This document shows positions 3,233 through 14,726 of a DNA stretch of 22,164 nucleotides, in pieces. The position numbers and the translations under genes were made by a program. Within the stretch, counting starts at the first letter, position 1; the number at the start of each line of letters is the position of its first letter. The stretch comes from a virus (Duplodnaviria > Heunggongvirae > Uroviricota > Caudoviricetes). The notes beneath the pieces were generated by a model that was given only the letters and a program-made list of their open reading frames with translations, had not been told where the DNA came from and searched no databases. Where the stretch lies: IMG/VR virus record IMGVR_UViG_2657245091_000012. The stretch is one strand, 5' to 3'.

Positions 3233-3307
3233 TCCGAAATTTAACTCTCCGTTTGAATGACGAAATAACAAAGTGATGACAATAGGAGGATAACCAGGAG
3301 GTGAAGA

Positions 3308-3592
3308 ATGAGCGCAATAGCCACCAGCGACACCCTTTGTTCTGGTCACGGAGGATTTCCGCCGCGACTGGTAGCTGAAACCGTTCCCTGGTTCACCGTT
3401 AACGGTAAGCCAGTTGTTGTAGATGGTGCCATGTTTCCCAGTCACACTGACGGTAACAGTGCACATCCAGGGGCAGCTGTATCGACGCGAGTATGGTTTT
3501 CGATAGGTGGAAAGGGAGTTGTCTGTGTAGGCGATCCGCTTTCTTGTGGTTCTGTTATCGCCAACGGCGAGGATATTTTTCAGGTTGCATAA
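3308..3592 (+). CDS. PAAR-like repeat protein (putative tail spike tip)
   Basis: 94 aa with repeated Gly/His/Cys-rich segments typical of PAAR domains (CSGHGGFPP, VNGKPVVVDGAMFPSHTDG, IGGKGVVCVGDPLSCGSVIANG); strong SD aggagg upstream of the ATG. Confidence 0.65.
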   Translation: MSAIATSDTLCSGHGGFPPRLVAETVPWFTVNGKPVVVDGAMFPSHTDGNSAHPGAAVSTRVWFSIGGKGVVCVGDPLSCGSVIANGEDIFQVA

Positions 3593-4453: not shown

Positions 4454-4927
4454 ATGAACCTGAAGAGGATGGTTTTGAAAAAGATAATTTTGATTGTAAT
4501 TGCGCTTTTAGCCATTTCTGGAATTTACCGAACAACGACGGCAGTTATCGAACACATCAGGTATGTCCGATCGCTTGAAGACTCAAAATCACAACTGGAA
4601 AGCACGAACAACACGCTTTCTACCGCATTACAGTTAAGTGAGAACGCTCGCTCAGCCATGCTGACCGAAAACGAAAGAATTAAAGCACTGGAAAAGGAGT
4701 ACCAGCGCAAAACAGCAGAACTGAATGCCAACCTAATCAAACAACGAGAGGAAAGCCAGAATGAAATCACTCGCCTTGAAAATGCGTTACGCCGTGCTGG
4801 GATTAACGATGTGCGTGTGCCTGATGACGTTATCAGGATGCAGCGGGAACGGGCAAAAGCCATCAACCAGCGTGCCAGTGAAAATTACCGTAGAAGCCAC
4901 CAGCAAGCCGCAGGCAAATCTGATTGA
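4454..4927 (+). CDS. putative i-spanin (Rz-like): N-terminal transmembrane anchor plus coiled-coil periplasmic domain
   Basis: N-terminus MNLKRMVLKKIILIVIALLAISGIY is a signal-anchor-like TM segment; the rest is charged and heptad-like (ENERIKALEKEYQRKTAELNANLIKQREESQNEITRLENALRR). Confidence 0.55.
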   Translation: MNLKRMVLKKIILIVIALLAISGIYRTTTAVIEHIRYVRSLEDSKSQLESTNNTLSTALQLSENARSAMLTENERIKALEKEYQRKTAELNANLIKQREESQNEITRLENALRRAGINDVRVPDDVIRMQRERAKAINQRASENYRRSHQQAAGKSD

Positions 4928-5093
4928 TTACTCCCCTTGTTTAGTGCCAGAGGACACGCCAGTGCTGTTAAACAAGTATCCGACATACGCTGAACAGTTA
5001 TTCAGCACGATCGACGAATGCAACCAACGAAACGCACTGAATAACCAAAGAAACAGGGAGATTTGGGAAGGGAAGGGGGATCAAGGCTCCTGA
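4761..5093 (+). CDS. putative o-spanin (Rz1-like outer-membrane lipoprotein) starting inside the i-spanin gene in another frame
   Basis: Signal peptide with lipobox LSGC (MKSLALKMRYAVLGLTMCVCLMTLSGC); SD gaggaa 7 nt upstream of the ATG; overlaps the 3' end of the Rz-like gene by 167 nt, the classic overlapped spanin architecture. Confidence 0.55.
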   Translation: MKSLALKMRYAVLGLTMCVCLMTLSGCSGNGQKPSTSVPVKITVEATSKPQANLIDYSPCLVPEDTPVLLNKYPTYAEQLFSTIDECNQRNALNNQRNREIWEGKGDQGS

Positions 5094-5539
5094 AGCCAGA
5101 TGTCCTGGCTGTCAGCTTCTTCGAAACCGTGACAGACGTTAAAGTCACTCAAGCGATACTGACGCTGACGGCCTCTATTTCGCTCATGCCAATGCATATA
5201 TCCACCAGCAAATGCCAGCGGACAATCACTATAGTCTATGTAACCAATACCATTCCCCAAACGTGCTTCGCGCGCACCGGCTTTCCAGGACAGTAGAAAA
5301 GAGTCACGATCCGCCAGCATAACAACAAAATCGTCCGGATCTCCGATACAGTGAAGAATACCTGCCTTACATAACTGCTTGAGCGCTTTGGACTGGCTCA
5401 GGATGTCTTCTCCGTAATACTGAAAACAATCATCAACAACAGCGGGATAGCCTGCCGGGGGATTCAGGCTGGTTGGTATAGCTGACGCGATCGACAGCAT
5501 TAAGCGATATTGTGTTTTTGATGGGTTAACGTGGCTCAT
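5081..5539 (-). CDS. hypothetical protein (152 aa), second gene of a minus-strand two-gene unit
   Basis: ORF with ATG at 5537-5539 and AAGGGA SD; no recognisable motif; 3' end overlaps the o-spanin 3' end convergently. Confidence 0.4.
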   Translation of the reverse strand: MSHVNPSKTQYRLMLSIASAIPTSLNPPAGYPAVVDDCFQYYGEDILSQSKALKQLCKAGILHCIGDPDDFVVMLADRDSFLLSWKAGAREARLGNGIGYIDYSDCPLAFAGGYMHWHERNRGRQRQYRLSDFNVCHGFEEADSQDIWLQEP

Positions 5540-5555
5540 TTTGTCCCTTGTTTAC

Positions 5556-5948
5556 TCATTGTCGCCATGCGTTTTTTAACTCAGGAATATCTGCCATTTC
5601 AATTAACTTGCGAAGTCCAGCACTGACTTTCCCATTACCAACCATAGCAAGCCAATCTCTTACTGCTTTCGGCATGTAGAGCGTTGCTGTTACCGGCTCT
5701 TCAACCCTGGCAGGACATCCGCATACAGGCCATTTAATTGATTCCATAACTTCGGAGGCTGGGGTGAGGGCGGGGACATTGAGTATATCTCTACCAGAAA
5801 ACTGGATAACGATCCGTTCAGCTAGCGAGAGTATCTCACTTTCGGCAAGAATTGATGCCAACTGCGCCTCAACAAGAAAGCGACTTGTTGTGTTCAGAGA
5901 GTGGCTCTTAGCGCCATTTTTATACGAAACAAAGATTCGATACGCCAT
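5556..5948 (-). CDS. hypothetical protein (130 aa) with a C-terminal ribbon-helix-helix-like segment (possible DNA-binding regulator)
   Basis: C-terminal TATLYMPKAVRDWLAMVGNGKVSAGLRKLIEMA fits a beta-strand/helix/helix RHH pattern (Arc/MetJ/CopG-like); tightly spaced upstream of the 152-aa ORF. Confidence 0.4.
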   Translation of the reverse strand: MAYRIFVSYKNGAKSHSLNTTSRFLVEAQLASILAESEILSLAERIVIQFSGRDILNVPALTPASEVMESIKWPVCGCPARVEEPVTATLYMPKAVRDWLAMVGNGKVSAGLRKLIEMADIPELKNAWRQ

Positions 5949-6106
5949 AACTCTAATGATTTGTGTTAGAAAACTAAAATTAAATCACATAACAACATGC
6001 GTGTTAATATATTTTATTTTACTAAGCCTATTGACTAAATCACAAAGTATGTATTGTTAGCACGTCAAAAGAACCTTCACGCCGCGCCCGAATTTAGGGC
6101 TTAACC

Positions 6107-7804
6107 GTGAATAAAAACATTCAGCCAGCTCGTGATCGCGAGCGCGAGATTATGAATCGGGCGGCAAGCGTCATGGCTATGACCGTCGATCCGACCACCG
6201 ATGCAGCAGGCAACATGATTGCTGACCAGGCAGTAATGATGGAAAACCTGGATAAAGCAATCCAGAAAGTGCCTATGTTTGAAGGCGTAAATCCAGAGGT
6301 CGCTCGTCAGATCACTGGTGGGTGGGCTATGTCTCTGCATGAGTATAAACGTCAACATGGTCATTACCCGGCAAGTGACATCCTGGCGAACGCACACATG
6401 GCTCTTGAACGCCTGATGACTGAATGTGCCAGTGATACCCATGAAGGCACGGGTAAGGCAATGTTTGAGTCTGTCGCGCAATCAATGCGTAGCTCTGACG
6501 GCGTAATGAAAGTTGCTCAATATGCTGCTCTAATTCTGCCTGCCTCTCTGGGCGCTGCTACCAGTGATGCCTGTACTTTTGTTCCTTGTGATCGTGACGA
6601 GTCAAATATTTATGAACTGGTCAACGTAGCAGGCACAAAATTCGGCACCTTCAAACAAGGTGACGAACTGAATATGCAGTCAGCTGGTGTTTATTCTCAA
6701 ATGAAGCGCCTGTATACCCTTTCCACTAAAGGGGATGGCAGCACCAAAACCTTCCAGTTCGACATCCAAAATTTTGAGGGACAATCCTGCCCGCTTCGCG
6801 CTGGTTATAACAAACTGCTGATCAACCGCAAACCGTCCAAAGTTGACGACGGCGATGGCAACCTTTATTTCAATGCTAAAGACAGCAAAGGTAATGCTTT
6901 CTCAGCGACTGCCAAAGTTGCCTATGACACTGGTGTCATTGACATTACATTTACCCAGGCTCCGCCAGAAGGTACTGAAATTGCTGTTCAGGTCGAAATT
7001 AACATCGAGCGCAATCCAAGCCTGATTCCTGTGATCAACCAGGCTATGCGTAAGTACGAAGTTCGTCCGTCCCAGTACGTAATTGCTTCCGAACACACGG
7101 TAATGTCCGCATCCGATTTAAGCCGTGAGCACGGCCTTGAATTAGCGGCACTTCAGTTCTCCGCGATGCGTAACTGGATCTCCCATGAAACCGACATCAT
7201 GCGTCTGCGCACCCTGGTATTCCATACCGTTTATGGTCGTGAATTTGATGTGGCTCTGCCGGAAGCTCAAAACTATGAGTCCTGGGTCGGCCTCCTGCGT
7301 CACGTAGTAAACGCTCTGTCTCAAGAAATGGCAAATCGTACCCTGACAACGGGTATTCGTGGCGGCTTTGCTGGTGGTGACGCCGCGAACTTCCTGCGCT
7401 CTCTGCCTCCACAGCACTTCCAGATCGCACCAGGTTACGTTCAGTCGCCGTATGTACAGTACATCGGCACCCTGTTTGGCACGATTCGTATTTACGAAGT
7501 GCCGCAACCTGTCTGTGAGCAATTCCAGGCACAGGGATATGACTTCGGGCTGGATGACATCTTCTTCTATGGGCGTGGCGAAGGCATCGGTAAAGCCGGT
7601 CTGATTGCTGGTGATGCAGTCCCAGCAATCCCTTACGTGCACGAAACCAATCCGTCTCTCGTTAACCGTACCACTCTCTGGGGCAGTGCCATCAACGAAG
7701 TACATCCTCGCAACGGTGAAAACTACTTCACCCGCCTGCGTCTGACTCGTGCCAAAGAAGGTGCTATCGACATGCTGACAGGCAAGGTTAACGAAAAAAA
7801 GTGA
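6107..7804 (+). CDS. major virion structural protein, probably the major capsid protein (565 aa); GTG start
   Basis: Large ORF at the head of the structural block, followed by a stem-loop and an Ig-like protein gene and then the sheath gene; the capsid call is inferred from position and size, not from a recognised motif. The start is uncertain (GTG at 6107 or ATG at 6152). Confidence 0.45.
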   Translation: MNKNIQPARDREREIMNRAASVMAMTVDPTTDAAGNMIADQAVMMENLDKAIQKVPMFEGVNPEVARQITGGWAMSLHEYKRQHGHYPASDILANAHMALERLMTECASDTHEGTGKAMFESVAQSMRSSDGVMKVAQYAALILPASLGAATSDACTFVPCDRDESNIYELVNVAGTKFGTFKQGDELNMQSAGVYSQMKRLYTLSTKGDGSTKTFQFDIQNFEGQSCPLRAGYNKLLINRKPSKVDDGDGNLYFNAKDSKGNAFSATAKVAYDTGVIDITFTQAPPEGTEIAVQVEINIERNPSLIPVINQAMRKYEVRPSQYVIASEHTVMSASDLSREHGLELAALQFSAMRNWISHETDIMRLRTLVFHTVYGREFDVALPEAQNYESWVGLLRHVVNALSQEMANRTLTTGIRGGFAGGDAANFLRSLPPQHFQIAPGYVQSPYVQYIGTLFGTIRIYEVPQPVCEQFQAQGYDFGLDDIFFYGRGEGIGKAGLIAGDAVPAIPYVHETNPSLVNRTTLWGSAINEVHPRNGENYFTRLRLTRAKEGAIDMLTGKVNEKK

Positions 7805-14622: not shown

Positions 14623-14726
14623 TAATCGCTTCTCGACCGGCAAAGATCTTCATTCAATCCCCATCGCAAATCACACACTCCCTATCCTCTGGAAAATGAA
14701 CAGATACCTGCTTTTCGGAGGAATAA

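What the first reader, a model, noticed from the sequence alone, without database searches (positions are those of the whole stretch)
5081..6106. Minus-strand two-gene unit (RHH-like protein plus unknown protein) divergent from the capsid-like gene
Two tightly linked small genes are transcribed opposite to both the lysis and structural blocks. The first has a C-terminal ribbon-helix-helix-like DNA-binding segment and the second has no recognisable motif. The AT-rich divergent intergenic region 5949-6106 probably holds promoters for both directions. Candidates are a late-gene regulator, a toxin-antitoxin-like pair, or an accessory defence/anti-defence cassette.
Basis: inference. Interest (0 to 1): 0.45.

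Follow-up and report, generated by a model that had tools for sequence, protein, structure and literature searches.

The report
Repressor-controlled early two-gene operon, phage D6
These are two real but uncharacterised genes of a D6-like (P1-family) plasmid prophage that probably form an early lytic operon shut off by the prophage repressor; they are two independently distributed genes that happen to be neighbours here, not a toxin-antitoxin pair, so the finding is fairly ordinary.

Summary
ORFs 5556-5948 (130 aa) and 5081-5539 (152 aa) are D6 orf52 and orf53. Both are under purifying selection and lie divergent from the major capsid gene across an AT-rich 158-bp spacer.

New here:
1. An invariant 10-mer, TTTTCTAACA, sits 15 nt upstream of the orf52 ATG. 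It occurs 10 times in D6 (0.34 expected), in front of c1, lpa, ref, icd-ant and other early genes. It shares its TCTAA core with the P1 C1 operator, so the operon is most likely C1-repressed and early.
2. The capsid gene has a D6 late-promoter box, AAATCACAnACT. Nine such boxes occur in D6, all upstream of late operons.
3. The pair is not an obligate unit. orf52 relatives always sit divergent from the capsid gene (Citrobacter, Pantoea, Xenorhabdus), with variable genes downstream. orf53 relatives sit near cre or ref, 31 kb from the orf52 relative in one Citrobacter plasmid.
4. The RHH reading of the orf52 C-terminus is plausible but unproven.
5. orf53 matches no known family, and its structure model is unusable.

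Best reading: orf52 is an Arc/Cro-like DNA-binding leader of a C1-controlled early operon, and orf53 is an accessory early protein. The toxin-antitoxin reading is disfavoured.

The parts
5556..5948 (-). orf52 (130 aa), the first gene of the unit. It has an N-terminal alpha/beta domain (residues 1-70), a low-confidence linker, and C-terminal helices.
   Evidence: ORF and translation. D6 orf52. AF2 model pLDDT 79.6. Family alignment with invariant Y3, Y9, G12, S15, H16, T20, G77, P85, P93, L100, G104, G106. dN/dS 0.06-0.16. Local divergence trough.
5592..5693 (-). RHH-like segment of orf52 (residues ~86-119): TATLYMP strand candidate, helix KAVRDWLAMV, GNGK turn, helix VSAGLRKLIEMA.
   Evidence: AF2 helices 94-103 and 108-119. 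hhalign against the RHH reference profile gives the right register, score 18.2, probability 19.8%; shuffles average 7.8 with a maximum of 15.0. No Pfam or PDB sequence hit.
5540..5555 (-). Intercistronic spacer with an AAGGGA Shine-Dalgarno for orf53.
   Evidence: Read from the sequence.
5081..5539 (-). orf53 (152 aa), a member of an uncharacterised family of P1-like phage-plasmids. Invariant residues: Y41, F81, G88, G95, Y100, F110, G113, H116, C136-H137-G138.
   Evidence: dN/dS 0.025-0.04. No Pfam, NCBIfam, PADLOC or PDB match. AF2 pLDDT 49, unusable.
5960..5978 (-). C1-operator-like site. Core TTTTCTAACA (5973 to 5964 on the minus strand), 15 nt upstream of the orf52 ATG.
   Evidence: Core invariant in 7 D6-like lineages. 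10 exact copies in D6 against 0.34 expected, upstream of c1, lpa, ref, icd-ant, simB, hrdC and the orf117, orf88 and orf98 operons. The P1 operator consensus ATTGCTCTAATAAATTT shares the TCTAA core: PMC8546580.
5977..6007 (-). Candidate sigma-70 promoter of orf52: -35 TTAACA (6007-6002) and an AT-rich -10 region TTTAATTT (5984-5977) abutting the operator.
   Evidence: Inference from the sequence and partial conservation of TTnACA in 5 of 7 lineages. The consensus scan proposed a different site, 6045-6016. Not tested.
6017..6026 (+). Degenerate second operator-like element (TTTTACTAAG) in inverted orientation. Related lineages have better copies at this position.
   Evidence: Inverted-repeat search across lineages and alignment A4. 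Weak in this window.
5982..5993 (+). Degenerate upstream copy of the late-promoter box (AAATCACATAAC), lying inside the candidate orf52 promoter spacer.
   Evidence: The AAAnCACA part is conserved in 6 of 7 lineages. Function unknown.
6037..6057 (+). Late (Lpa-type) promoter of the capsid gene: box AAATCACAAAGT (6037-6048) followed by -10 TATTGT (6052-6057).
   Evidence: Conserved block. In D6 the motif AAATCACAnACT has 9 sites with at most 1 mismatch, all upstream of late operons (2.6 expected).
6064..6106 (+). Highly conserved 5' leader of the capsid gene.
   Evidence: Near-invariant in 7 D6-like lineages and largely conserved in Citrobacter and Pantoea. The predicted hairpin is not significant (z -1.4).

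Best explanation
orf52-orf53 is a bicistronic early operon of a D6-like P1-family plasmid prophage.

Regulation: in the lysogen the C1 repressor most likely binds an operator (core TTTTCTAACA, 5964-5973) that abuts the promoter's -10 region and start site, and keeps the operon off. After infection or induction the operon is transcribed leftward, away from the capsid gene. The capsid gene has its own Lpa-type late promoter 60 bp further right.

Orf52 (inferred): a two-domain protein whose C-terminus dimerises into a ribbon-helix-helix DNA-binding module. Like Arc or Cro, it is the first product of an early operon. It probably binds its own divergent control region to tune early transcription, and possibly the neighbouring late promoter.

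Orf53 (biochemical function unknown): an accessory early protein of a family that P1-like phage-plasmids carry in repressor-controlled early operons. In the D6 lineage it has landed in the variable slot downstream of orf52. It is not a partner that orf52 requires.
For: Shown:
- Both genes are real, conserved and under purifying selection.
- The 10-mer 15 nt upstream of the ATG is invariant in 7 lineages.
- That 10-mer occurs 10 times exactly in D6, against 0.34 expected and a maximum of 2 in 200 simulations. The copies lie in front of c1 (two copies), lpa, ref, icd-ant, simB, hrdC, the cre-proximal orf117 operon and the long orf88 operon. This mirrors the dispersed C1 regulon of P1, which includes lpa, and the motif shares the TCTAA core of the P1 operator (PMC8546580).
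- An exact copy of the same 10-mer lies upstream of ref in L008/L009, at the head of the co-directional gene run that contains the orf53 relative.
- The late box AAATCACAnACT has 9 sites with at most 1 mismatch in D6, all upstream of late operons; one of them (1 mismatch) is the capsid gene's.
- orf52 relatives are always divergent from the capsid gene in Citrobacter, Pantoea and Xenorhabdus. In Citrobacter the relative heads a ~10-kb, co-directional, closely packed run of 27 small genes that resembles an early-type operon.
- orf53 relatives lie between cre and ref in other phage-plasmids. D6 has exactly that slot empty, and it is preceded by a C1-type operator.

Supporting the RHH reading:
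- AF2 secondary structure.
- hhalign in the expected register, exceeding 300 of 300 column shuffles.
- The reference profile was validated against Arc, Mnt, CopG, ParG, omega, RelB, NikR, FitA, ParD and MetJ.
Against: - No experiment or transcript data. Repression by C1 is inferred from a motif, and I could not read the D6 genome paper to see whether it defines operators.
- The promoter hexamers are weak and ambiguous (and my own reading).
- The RHH assignment fails every sequence-database test, and the hhalign probability is only 6-20%.
- The monomer model cannot show the dimeric fold.
- No binding site for Orf52 was identified. The dyad symmetry in the spacer is only 75% and AT-rich.
- orf53 has no usable structure (pLDDT 49) and no family match, so 'accessory early protein' describes context, not mechanism.
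Confidence: 0.5

Rival explanations
1. Type II toxin-antitoxin or abortive-infection pair. Orf52 would be a DNA-binding antitoxin with a HicB-like layout (neutralising N-domain plus C-terminal RHH), and Orf53 the toxin.
For: - Gene sizes, order and the 16-nt spacing fit.
- orf52 diverges much faster than orf53, as antitoxins often do.
Against: - The two families are unlinked elsewhere. orf53 relatives occur without orf52 in 16 of the 17 non-D6-annotated loci examined (L008-L024; the exception is the D6-like L014), among varied neighbours.
- orf52 relatives occur without orf53: alone in Pantoea, and 31 kb away from it in the same Citrobacter plasmid.
- No match to any toxin, antitoxin or defence model.
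- A C1-type operator implies silence in the plasmid state, which an addiction module cannot tolerate.
- D6 already carries phd-doc and higBA.
- The fold hits are far below significance.
Confidence: 0.07
2. Orf52 is chiefly a regulator of the adjacent capsid/tail late operon. It would act as a timer, co-activator or repressor at the late promoter, and its conserved position next to that promoter would reflect this cis relationship.
For: - Strict synteny of the orf52 family with the capsid gene across four genera, at a 165-180 bp distance.
- A degenerate second late box inside the orf52 promoter region.
- A plausible DNA-binding C-terminus.
Against: - The other eight D6 late promoters have no orf52-like neighbour, and the late box alone accounts for them.
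- P1 itself runs gene 23 without any orf52 relative.
- No candidate binding site overlaps the late promoter.
Confidence: 0.15
3. Anti-defence or host-takeover cassette. Orf53, and perhaps the N-domain of Orf52, would be early inhibitors of host or competitor functions, and the slot downstream of orf52 would be an accessory-gene hotspot.
For: - Early, repressor-controlled expression.
- Variable cargo downstream of orf52 relatives, including a DUF262 protein, NinX and toxin-antitoxin genes.
- orf53 relatives travel with ref, dUTPase and other accessory early genes.
- orf52 is a sharp local divergence trough, as expected of genes in an arms race.
- The N-domain resembles many small uncharacterised phage proteins.
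Against: - No match to any known defence model; no anti-defence library was available.
- orf53 is highly conserved (dN/dS 0.03), unlike most fast-evolving counter-defence proteins.
- There is no functional data.
Confidence: 0.2
4. Orf52 does not bind DNA. The C-terminal helices would be a protein-interaction or dimerisation tail, and the protein a small early effector of unknown kind.
For: No RHH hit in Pfam, NCBIfam or PDB sequence searches. hhalign probability is at most 20%. Helix A is about three residues shorter than in classical RHH proteins (alignment).
Against: The alignment register, the conserved Pro after the strand, the G-x-G turn, and a score above all 300 shuffles all point to RHH.
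Confidence: 0.2

Closest known systems
P1 C1-controlled early operons (e.g. lpa, repL; 22 dispersed asymmetric operators)
   Same: A dispersed, asymmetric operator with a TCTAA core lies just upstream of early genes. D6 has a C1 homologue, and the motif precedes lpa, c1 and ref in D6 as well (PMC8546580).
   Different: The operator sequence differs (aTTAnTTTTCTAACAcAaa against ATTGCTCTAATAAATTT). P1 has no orf52 or orf53 relative. Binding was not tested.
P22 Arc / Mnt and lambda Cro (small repressors encoded first in an early operon)
   Same: A small protein encoded first in a repressor-controlled early operon. The Orf52 C-terminus aligns with Arc in the strand-helix-helix register: TLYMPKAV against NLRWPREV.
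   Different: Orf52 carries an extra 70-residue N-terminal domain and places the RHH-like part at the C-terminus. The similarity is below database significance, and no operator for it was identified.
HicB-type and other type II antitoxins with a C-terminal DNA-binding domain
   Same: A two-domain layout, with an N-terminal alpha/beta domain and a C-terminal RHH-like domain, encoded next to a ~150-aa protein.
   Different: No sequence or confident fold match to HicB. The partner is not conserved. The predicted expression pattern is wrong for an addiction module.
PHROG 7830 and PHROG 8101 (unknown function)
   Same: Full-length matches: 7.4e-79 for orf52 and 1.2e-97 for orf53.
   Different: These families carry no functional annotation.

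Membership tests
Ribbon-helix-helix (MetJ/Arc) superfamily - Orf52 C-terminus | Significant match to an RHH sequence family or profile | tested here: inconclusive
   No Pfam or NCBIfam hit, even for the isolated C-terminus at E<=10. No RHH chain in PDB profile searches. hhalign against a validated RHH profile gives probability 5.8-19.8% and score 18.2 in the correct register, above all 300 column shuffles, which average 7.8 with a maximum of 15.0.
Ribbon-helix-helix (MetJ/Arc) superfamily - Orf52 C-terminus | Strand, helix A, short turn, helix B topology | tested here: inconclusive
   The AF2 monomer shows helices 94-103 and 108-119 joined by GNGK. The preceding TATLYMP is extended and of low confidence, as expected if the strand forms only in a dimer.
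Ribbon-helix-helix (MetJ/Arc) superfamily - Orf52 C-terminus | Obligate homodimer that binds DNA through the paired strands | not testable with these tools
Type II toxin-antitoxin module | Toxin or antitoxin homologous to a known family | tested here: not met
   No Pfam, NCBIfam or PADLOC hits for either protein. PDB sequence and profile searches were empty.
Type II toxin-antitoxin module | The two genes co-occur as a conserved pair | tested here: not met
   They are paired only in D6-like lineages. They are unlinked in Citrobacter, Pantoea, Vibrio-type and other elements.
Type II toxin-antitoxin module | Toxicity of the second gene, neutralised by the first | not testable with these tools
   Needs expression assays.
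P1-type C1-repressed (early) operon | Operator matching the element's genome-wide operator motif, placed at the promoter | tested here: met
   Exact core TTTTCTAACA lies 15 nt upstream of the ATG and is invariant in 7 lineages. There are 10 exact genomic copies against 0.34 expected, upstream of c1, lpa, ref and other early genes. Overlap with the -10 region is inferred, not mapped.
P1-type C1-repressed (early) operon | C1 binds the site and represses transcription | not testable with these tools
   Needs EMSA or footprinting and reporter or RNA data.
P1-type late (Lpa-dependent) promoter - capsid gene side of the spacer | Conserved late box followed by a -10 hexamer, shared by the late operons | tested here: met
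   AAATCACAAAGT plus TATTGT at 6037-6057. In D6 there are 9 sites with at most 1 mismatch, all upstream of late genes and correctly oriented (2.6 expected).
Known anti-phage defence systems (PADLOC) | Match to a defence protein model | tested here: not met
   No hits at E<=1.

The most novel reading that the evidence does not exclude
The orf52 family would be a previously unrecognised early regulator of non-P1 members of the P1-like phage-plasmids. It is locked in position divergent from the capsid gene, and it would come in divergent specificity alleles that co-vary with its own control region. It would link the C1-controlled early phase to the main late promoter. In addition, or instead, orf53 would be a new early counter-defence or DNA-metabolism factor shared by P1-like phage-plasmids from Escherichia to Vibrio and Acinetobacter.
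Probability: 0.2. Interest if true: 0.55.

Novelty: new member of a known kind. Interest (0 to 1): 0.3.

Why it matters
D6-like and other P1-like phage-plasmids are widespread in Escherichia, Salmonella, Citrobacter, Pantoea and Vibrio, and some carry resistance genes. Their regulatory circuitry outside P1 itself is largely unannotated. This analysis places two 'hypothetical' genes in the repressor-controlled early class. It derives working consensus sequences for the D6 operator and late promoter. It also shows that the slot downstream of orf52 is a variable cargo site. That gives simple, testable predictions, but nothing here overturns current views.

Tried and rejected
- Pfam, NCBIfam and PADLOC gave nothing for either protein. 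PHROGs gave only families of unknown function.
- PDB sequence and profile searches gave nothing relevant.
- The AF2 model of orf53, built from a 10-sequence alignment, was unusable (pLDDT 49). With hindsight the job should have waited for the deeper 21-sequence alignment obtained afterwards.
- The afdb50 library was unavailable.
- The D6 genome paper and the P1 genome paper were not held.
- I first read TAAATCACA (5981 and 6036) as a possible operator repeat. It turned out to be the core of the late-promoter box.
- I looked for an Orf52 operator as a conserved dyad in the spacer. The inverted repeats found are mostly second copies of the C1-type operator or AT-rich chance matches.
- I tried to define the Citrobacter element's operator by k-mer counting. 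Chi sites dominated the result and no clear operator emerged.
- The weak BLAST similarity between orf53 and D6 orf116 (E 0.16) was not pursued.

Full report
**What is there.** The window is a D6-like member of the P1 family of plasmid prophages. Positions 4700-6500 are 98.8% identical to Escherichia phage D6. The two minus-strand ORFs, 5556-5948 (130 aa) and 5081-5539 (152 aa), are the D6 genes orf52 and orf53, both annotated as hypothetical. A 16-nt spacer with an AAGGGA ribosome-binding site separates them. They are divergent from the major capsid gene (P1 gene 23 homologue, 6107-7804) across a 158-bp spacer with GC 0.345. On the other side lie upfC, upfB and a spanin pair. orf55 matches Rz-like i-spanin families. 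The overlapping ORF 4761-5093 has an LSGC lipobox, and its 3' end overlaps that of orf53 by 13 nt. Both genes are real: dN/dS against diverged relatives is 0.025-0.04 for orf53 and 0.06-0.16 for orf52.

**Homology.** Neither protein matches Pfam, NCBIfam or PADLOC. Each matches a PHROG of unknown function over its full length. PDB sequence searches are empty. An exhaustive profile search added about 20 distant orf53 relatives. The 21-sequence alignment shows invariant Y41, F81, G88, G95, Y100, F110, G113, H116 and a C-H-G motif at 136-138, but no known family emerges. The AF2 model of orf53 is unusable (pLDDT 49).

**Is the C-terminus of Orf52 an RHH?** Sequence databases say no. I validated it against the PDB, where it retrieves Arc, Mnt, ParG, CopG, omega, RelB, NikR, FitA, ParD and MetJ. 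hhalign places the Orf52 C-terminus on this profile in the expected register: TATLYMP on the strand, KAVRDWL on helix A, a G-x-G turn, and SAGLRKLIE on helix B. With seven close sequences the probability is 5.8%. With nine diverse sequences it is 19.8% (score 18.2). In 300 column shuffles of the query the mean score was 7.8 (sd 1.7) and the maximum 15.0. The RHH reading is therefore plausible and better than chance, but it is not established.

**The spacer.**
- *Conserved blocks.* Aligning the spacer from seven D6-like lineages, whose Orf52 identity ranges from 81% down to 44%, shows three conserved blocks.
- *Operator-like site.* The first block is TGTTAGAAAA at 5964-5973. On the coding strand of orf52 this reads TTTTCTAACA, 15 nt upstream of the ATG. 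The 10-mer occurs 10 times exactly in the 91-kb D6 genome, and six more copies with one mismatch fit the same pattern (16 sites tabulated). A first-order Markov simulation gives a mean of 0.34 and a maximum of 2. The extended consensus is aTTAnTTTTCTAACAcAaa.
- *Where the copies lie.* They flank the c1 start and lie upstream of lpa, icd-antirepressor, hrdC, simB, ref/orf88, a pdcB-like gene and the cre-proximal orf117 operon. Several form inverted pairs.
- *Comparison with P1.* P1 C1 binds 22 dispersed asymmetric operators of consensus ATTGCTCTAATAAATTT and controls lpa and repL among others (PMC8546580). The D6 motif shares the TCTAA core and the same kind of distribution, and D6 encodes a C1 homologue. 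I conclude, by inference, that this is the D6 C1 operator and that orf52-orf53 is a C1-repressed early operon.
- *Candidate promoter.* A candidate has -35 TTAACA at 6007-6002 and an AT-rich -10 region at 5984-5977, abutting the operator. This is my reading only. The consensus scan proposed another site.
- *Late promoter.* The second block, TTGACTAAATCACAAAGT followed by TATTGT (6031-6057), contains the motif AAATCACAnACT. In D6 this motif has nine sites with at most one mismatch (2.6 expected). All are correctly oriented upstream of late operons: the orf16 hydrolase, prt, ddrB, lydA, R, pmgB, gene 23, gene 7 and mat. It is therefore the late, presumably Lpa-dependent, promoter of the capsid operon.
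- *Capsid leader.* The third block (6064-6106) is the capsid gene leader. It is conserved even in Citrobacter and Pantoea.

**Is it a two-gene unit?** Only in the D6 lineage. Within D6-like elements the pair is always together. Elsewhere the two families have separate distributions.

orf53 relatives:
- They occur in 141 plasmid records, nearly all 80-125 kb and non-mobilisable, from Escherichia to Vibrio, Acinetobacter and Aeromonas.
- In the 16 more distant loci examined they lack any orf52 or capsid gene nearby.
- They sit between cre and ref in the order cre, orf117-like, orf53-like, orf116-like, dUTPase. Alternatively they sit in the gene run behind ref, or next to a PadR regulator in the Vibrio-type elements.
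- D6 has cre-orf117-orf116-dUTPase with exactly the orf53 slot empty, and a C1-type operator in front of orf117.
- In L008/L009 an exact copy of the D6-type operator lies upstream of ref, at the head of the run that contains the orf53 relative.

orf52 relatives:
- tblastn finds them in 140 plasmids, including Citrobacter (35% identity), Pantoea (33%) and Xenorhabdus (26%).
- In the three distant records examined they are divergent from the capsid gene at 165-180 bp, as they are in every D6-like locus.
- What follows downstream varies: a 27-gene run of small genes in Citrobacter, nothing in Pantoea, and NinX plus toxin-antitoxin genes in Xenorhabdus.
- In one Citrobacter plasmid the two families lie 31 kb apart.
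- orf52 is also a sharp local trough of nucleotide identity: 54-66% against L002, where the flanks are 80-90%. This suggests allelic replacement or fast divergence of orf52 alone.

**Interpretation.** The toxin-antitoxin reading fails two of its defining features: no conserved pairing and no family match. It also conflicts with the predicted silence in the lysogen. D6 already has phd-doc and higBA.

The best-supported picture is a C1-controlled early operon. Its leader gene encodes a probable DNA-binding protein, Arc/Cro-like in position and perhaps in fold. Its second gene is an accessory early protein that has moved into the variable slot behind orf52. Whether Orf52 also acts on the adjacent late promoter, and whether Orf53 is a counter-defence or DNA-metabolism factor, remains open.

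What is shown: the gene models, the selection, the motif statistics and the synteny. What is inferred: repression by C1, the promoter position, the RHH fold and autoregulation.

**Novelty and score.** The genes are already annotated, as hypothetical, in a published phage genome. The kind of feature, a repressor-controlled early operon led by a small regulator, is ordinary for temperate phages. The useful additions are the operator and late-promoter consensus sequences, the early-class assignment, and the evidence that the pair is a lineage-specific juxtaposition. The D6 genome paper may already describe the operators and late promoters, but I could not read it. Interest 0.3.

Noticed in passing
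window 14668-14679, 6037-6048, 3263-3274; D6 genome (L032/L033): A D6 late-promoter box, AAATCACAnACT, followed 3-5 nt later by a TAnnnT hexamer. D6 has nine sites with at most 1 mismatch, all upstream of late operons. In the window they precede pmgB and gene 23, and a 2-mismatch copy precedes upfC.
   Followed up: yes
D6 genome (L032/L033): 116, 208, 4641, 8917, 9073, 10322, 11365, 21267, 54208, 64125/64136, 72202, 75989, 76637, 80729, 89957: A genome-wide set of C1-operator-like sites (consensus aTTAnTTTTCTAACAcAaa). Several form inverted pairs. Four sites (8917, 9073, 10322, 11365) lie in or near the tRNA-pmgS-pmgM region, where no early gene is annotated.
   Followed up: partly
window 4454-4927 and 4761-5093 (+): orf55 is an Rz-like i-spanin. 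The overlapping ORF has an LSGC lipobox and is probably the o-spanin. The D6 annotation starts orf54 at the equivalent of 4872 and so omits the signal peptide. Its 3' end overlaps orf53 convergently by 13 nt, and no terminator is predicted between them.
   Followed up: partly
window 6064-6106 (+): The capsid gene leader is nearly invariant across D6-like lineages and largely conserved in Citrobacter and Pantoea. A hairpin that would pair the GTG start and the AGGG ribosome-binding site is predicted, but it is not significant (z -1.4).
   Followed up: partly
window 5600-5900: orf52 is a local trough of nucleotide identity against three relatives, while orf53 and the capsid gene on either side stay much more similar. 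dS is about 2 for orf52 and 0.9 for orf53 in the same pair.
   Followed up: partly
L018-L024 (e.g. L019 5467-5964): In Vibrio-type P1-like elements the orf53 relative lies directly next to a PadR-family regulator. The regulator is downstream in most loci and upstream in L022.
   Followed up: partly
L040/L041 (Citrobacter freundii NZ_CP114569.1): The most frequent 10-mers of this 85.6-kb phage-plasmid all contain the Chi sequence GCTGGTGG, with dozens of copies.
   Followed up: no
window 3308-3592 (+): upfC matches a PAAR-motif PHROG (8.4e-29), and its relatives are annotated as PAAR-domain proteins. It lies in a late operon with upfB and the spanins.
   Followed up: no
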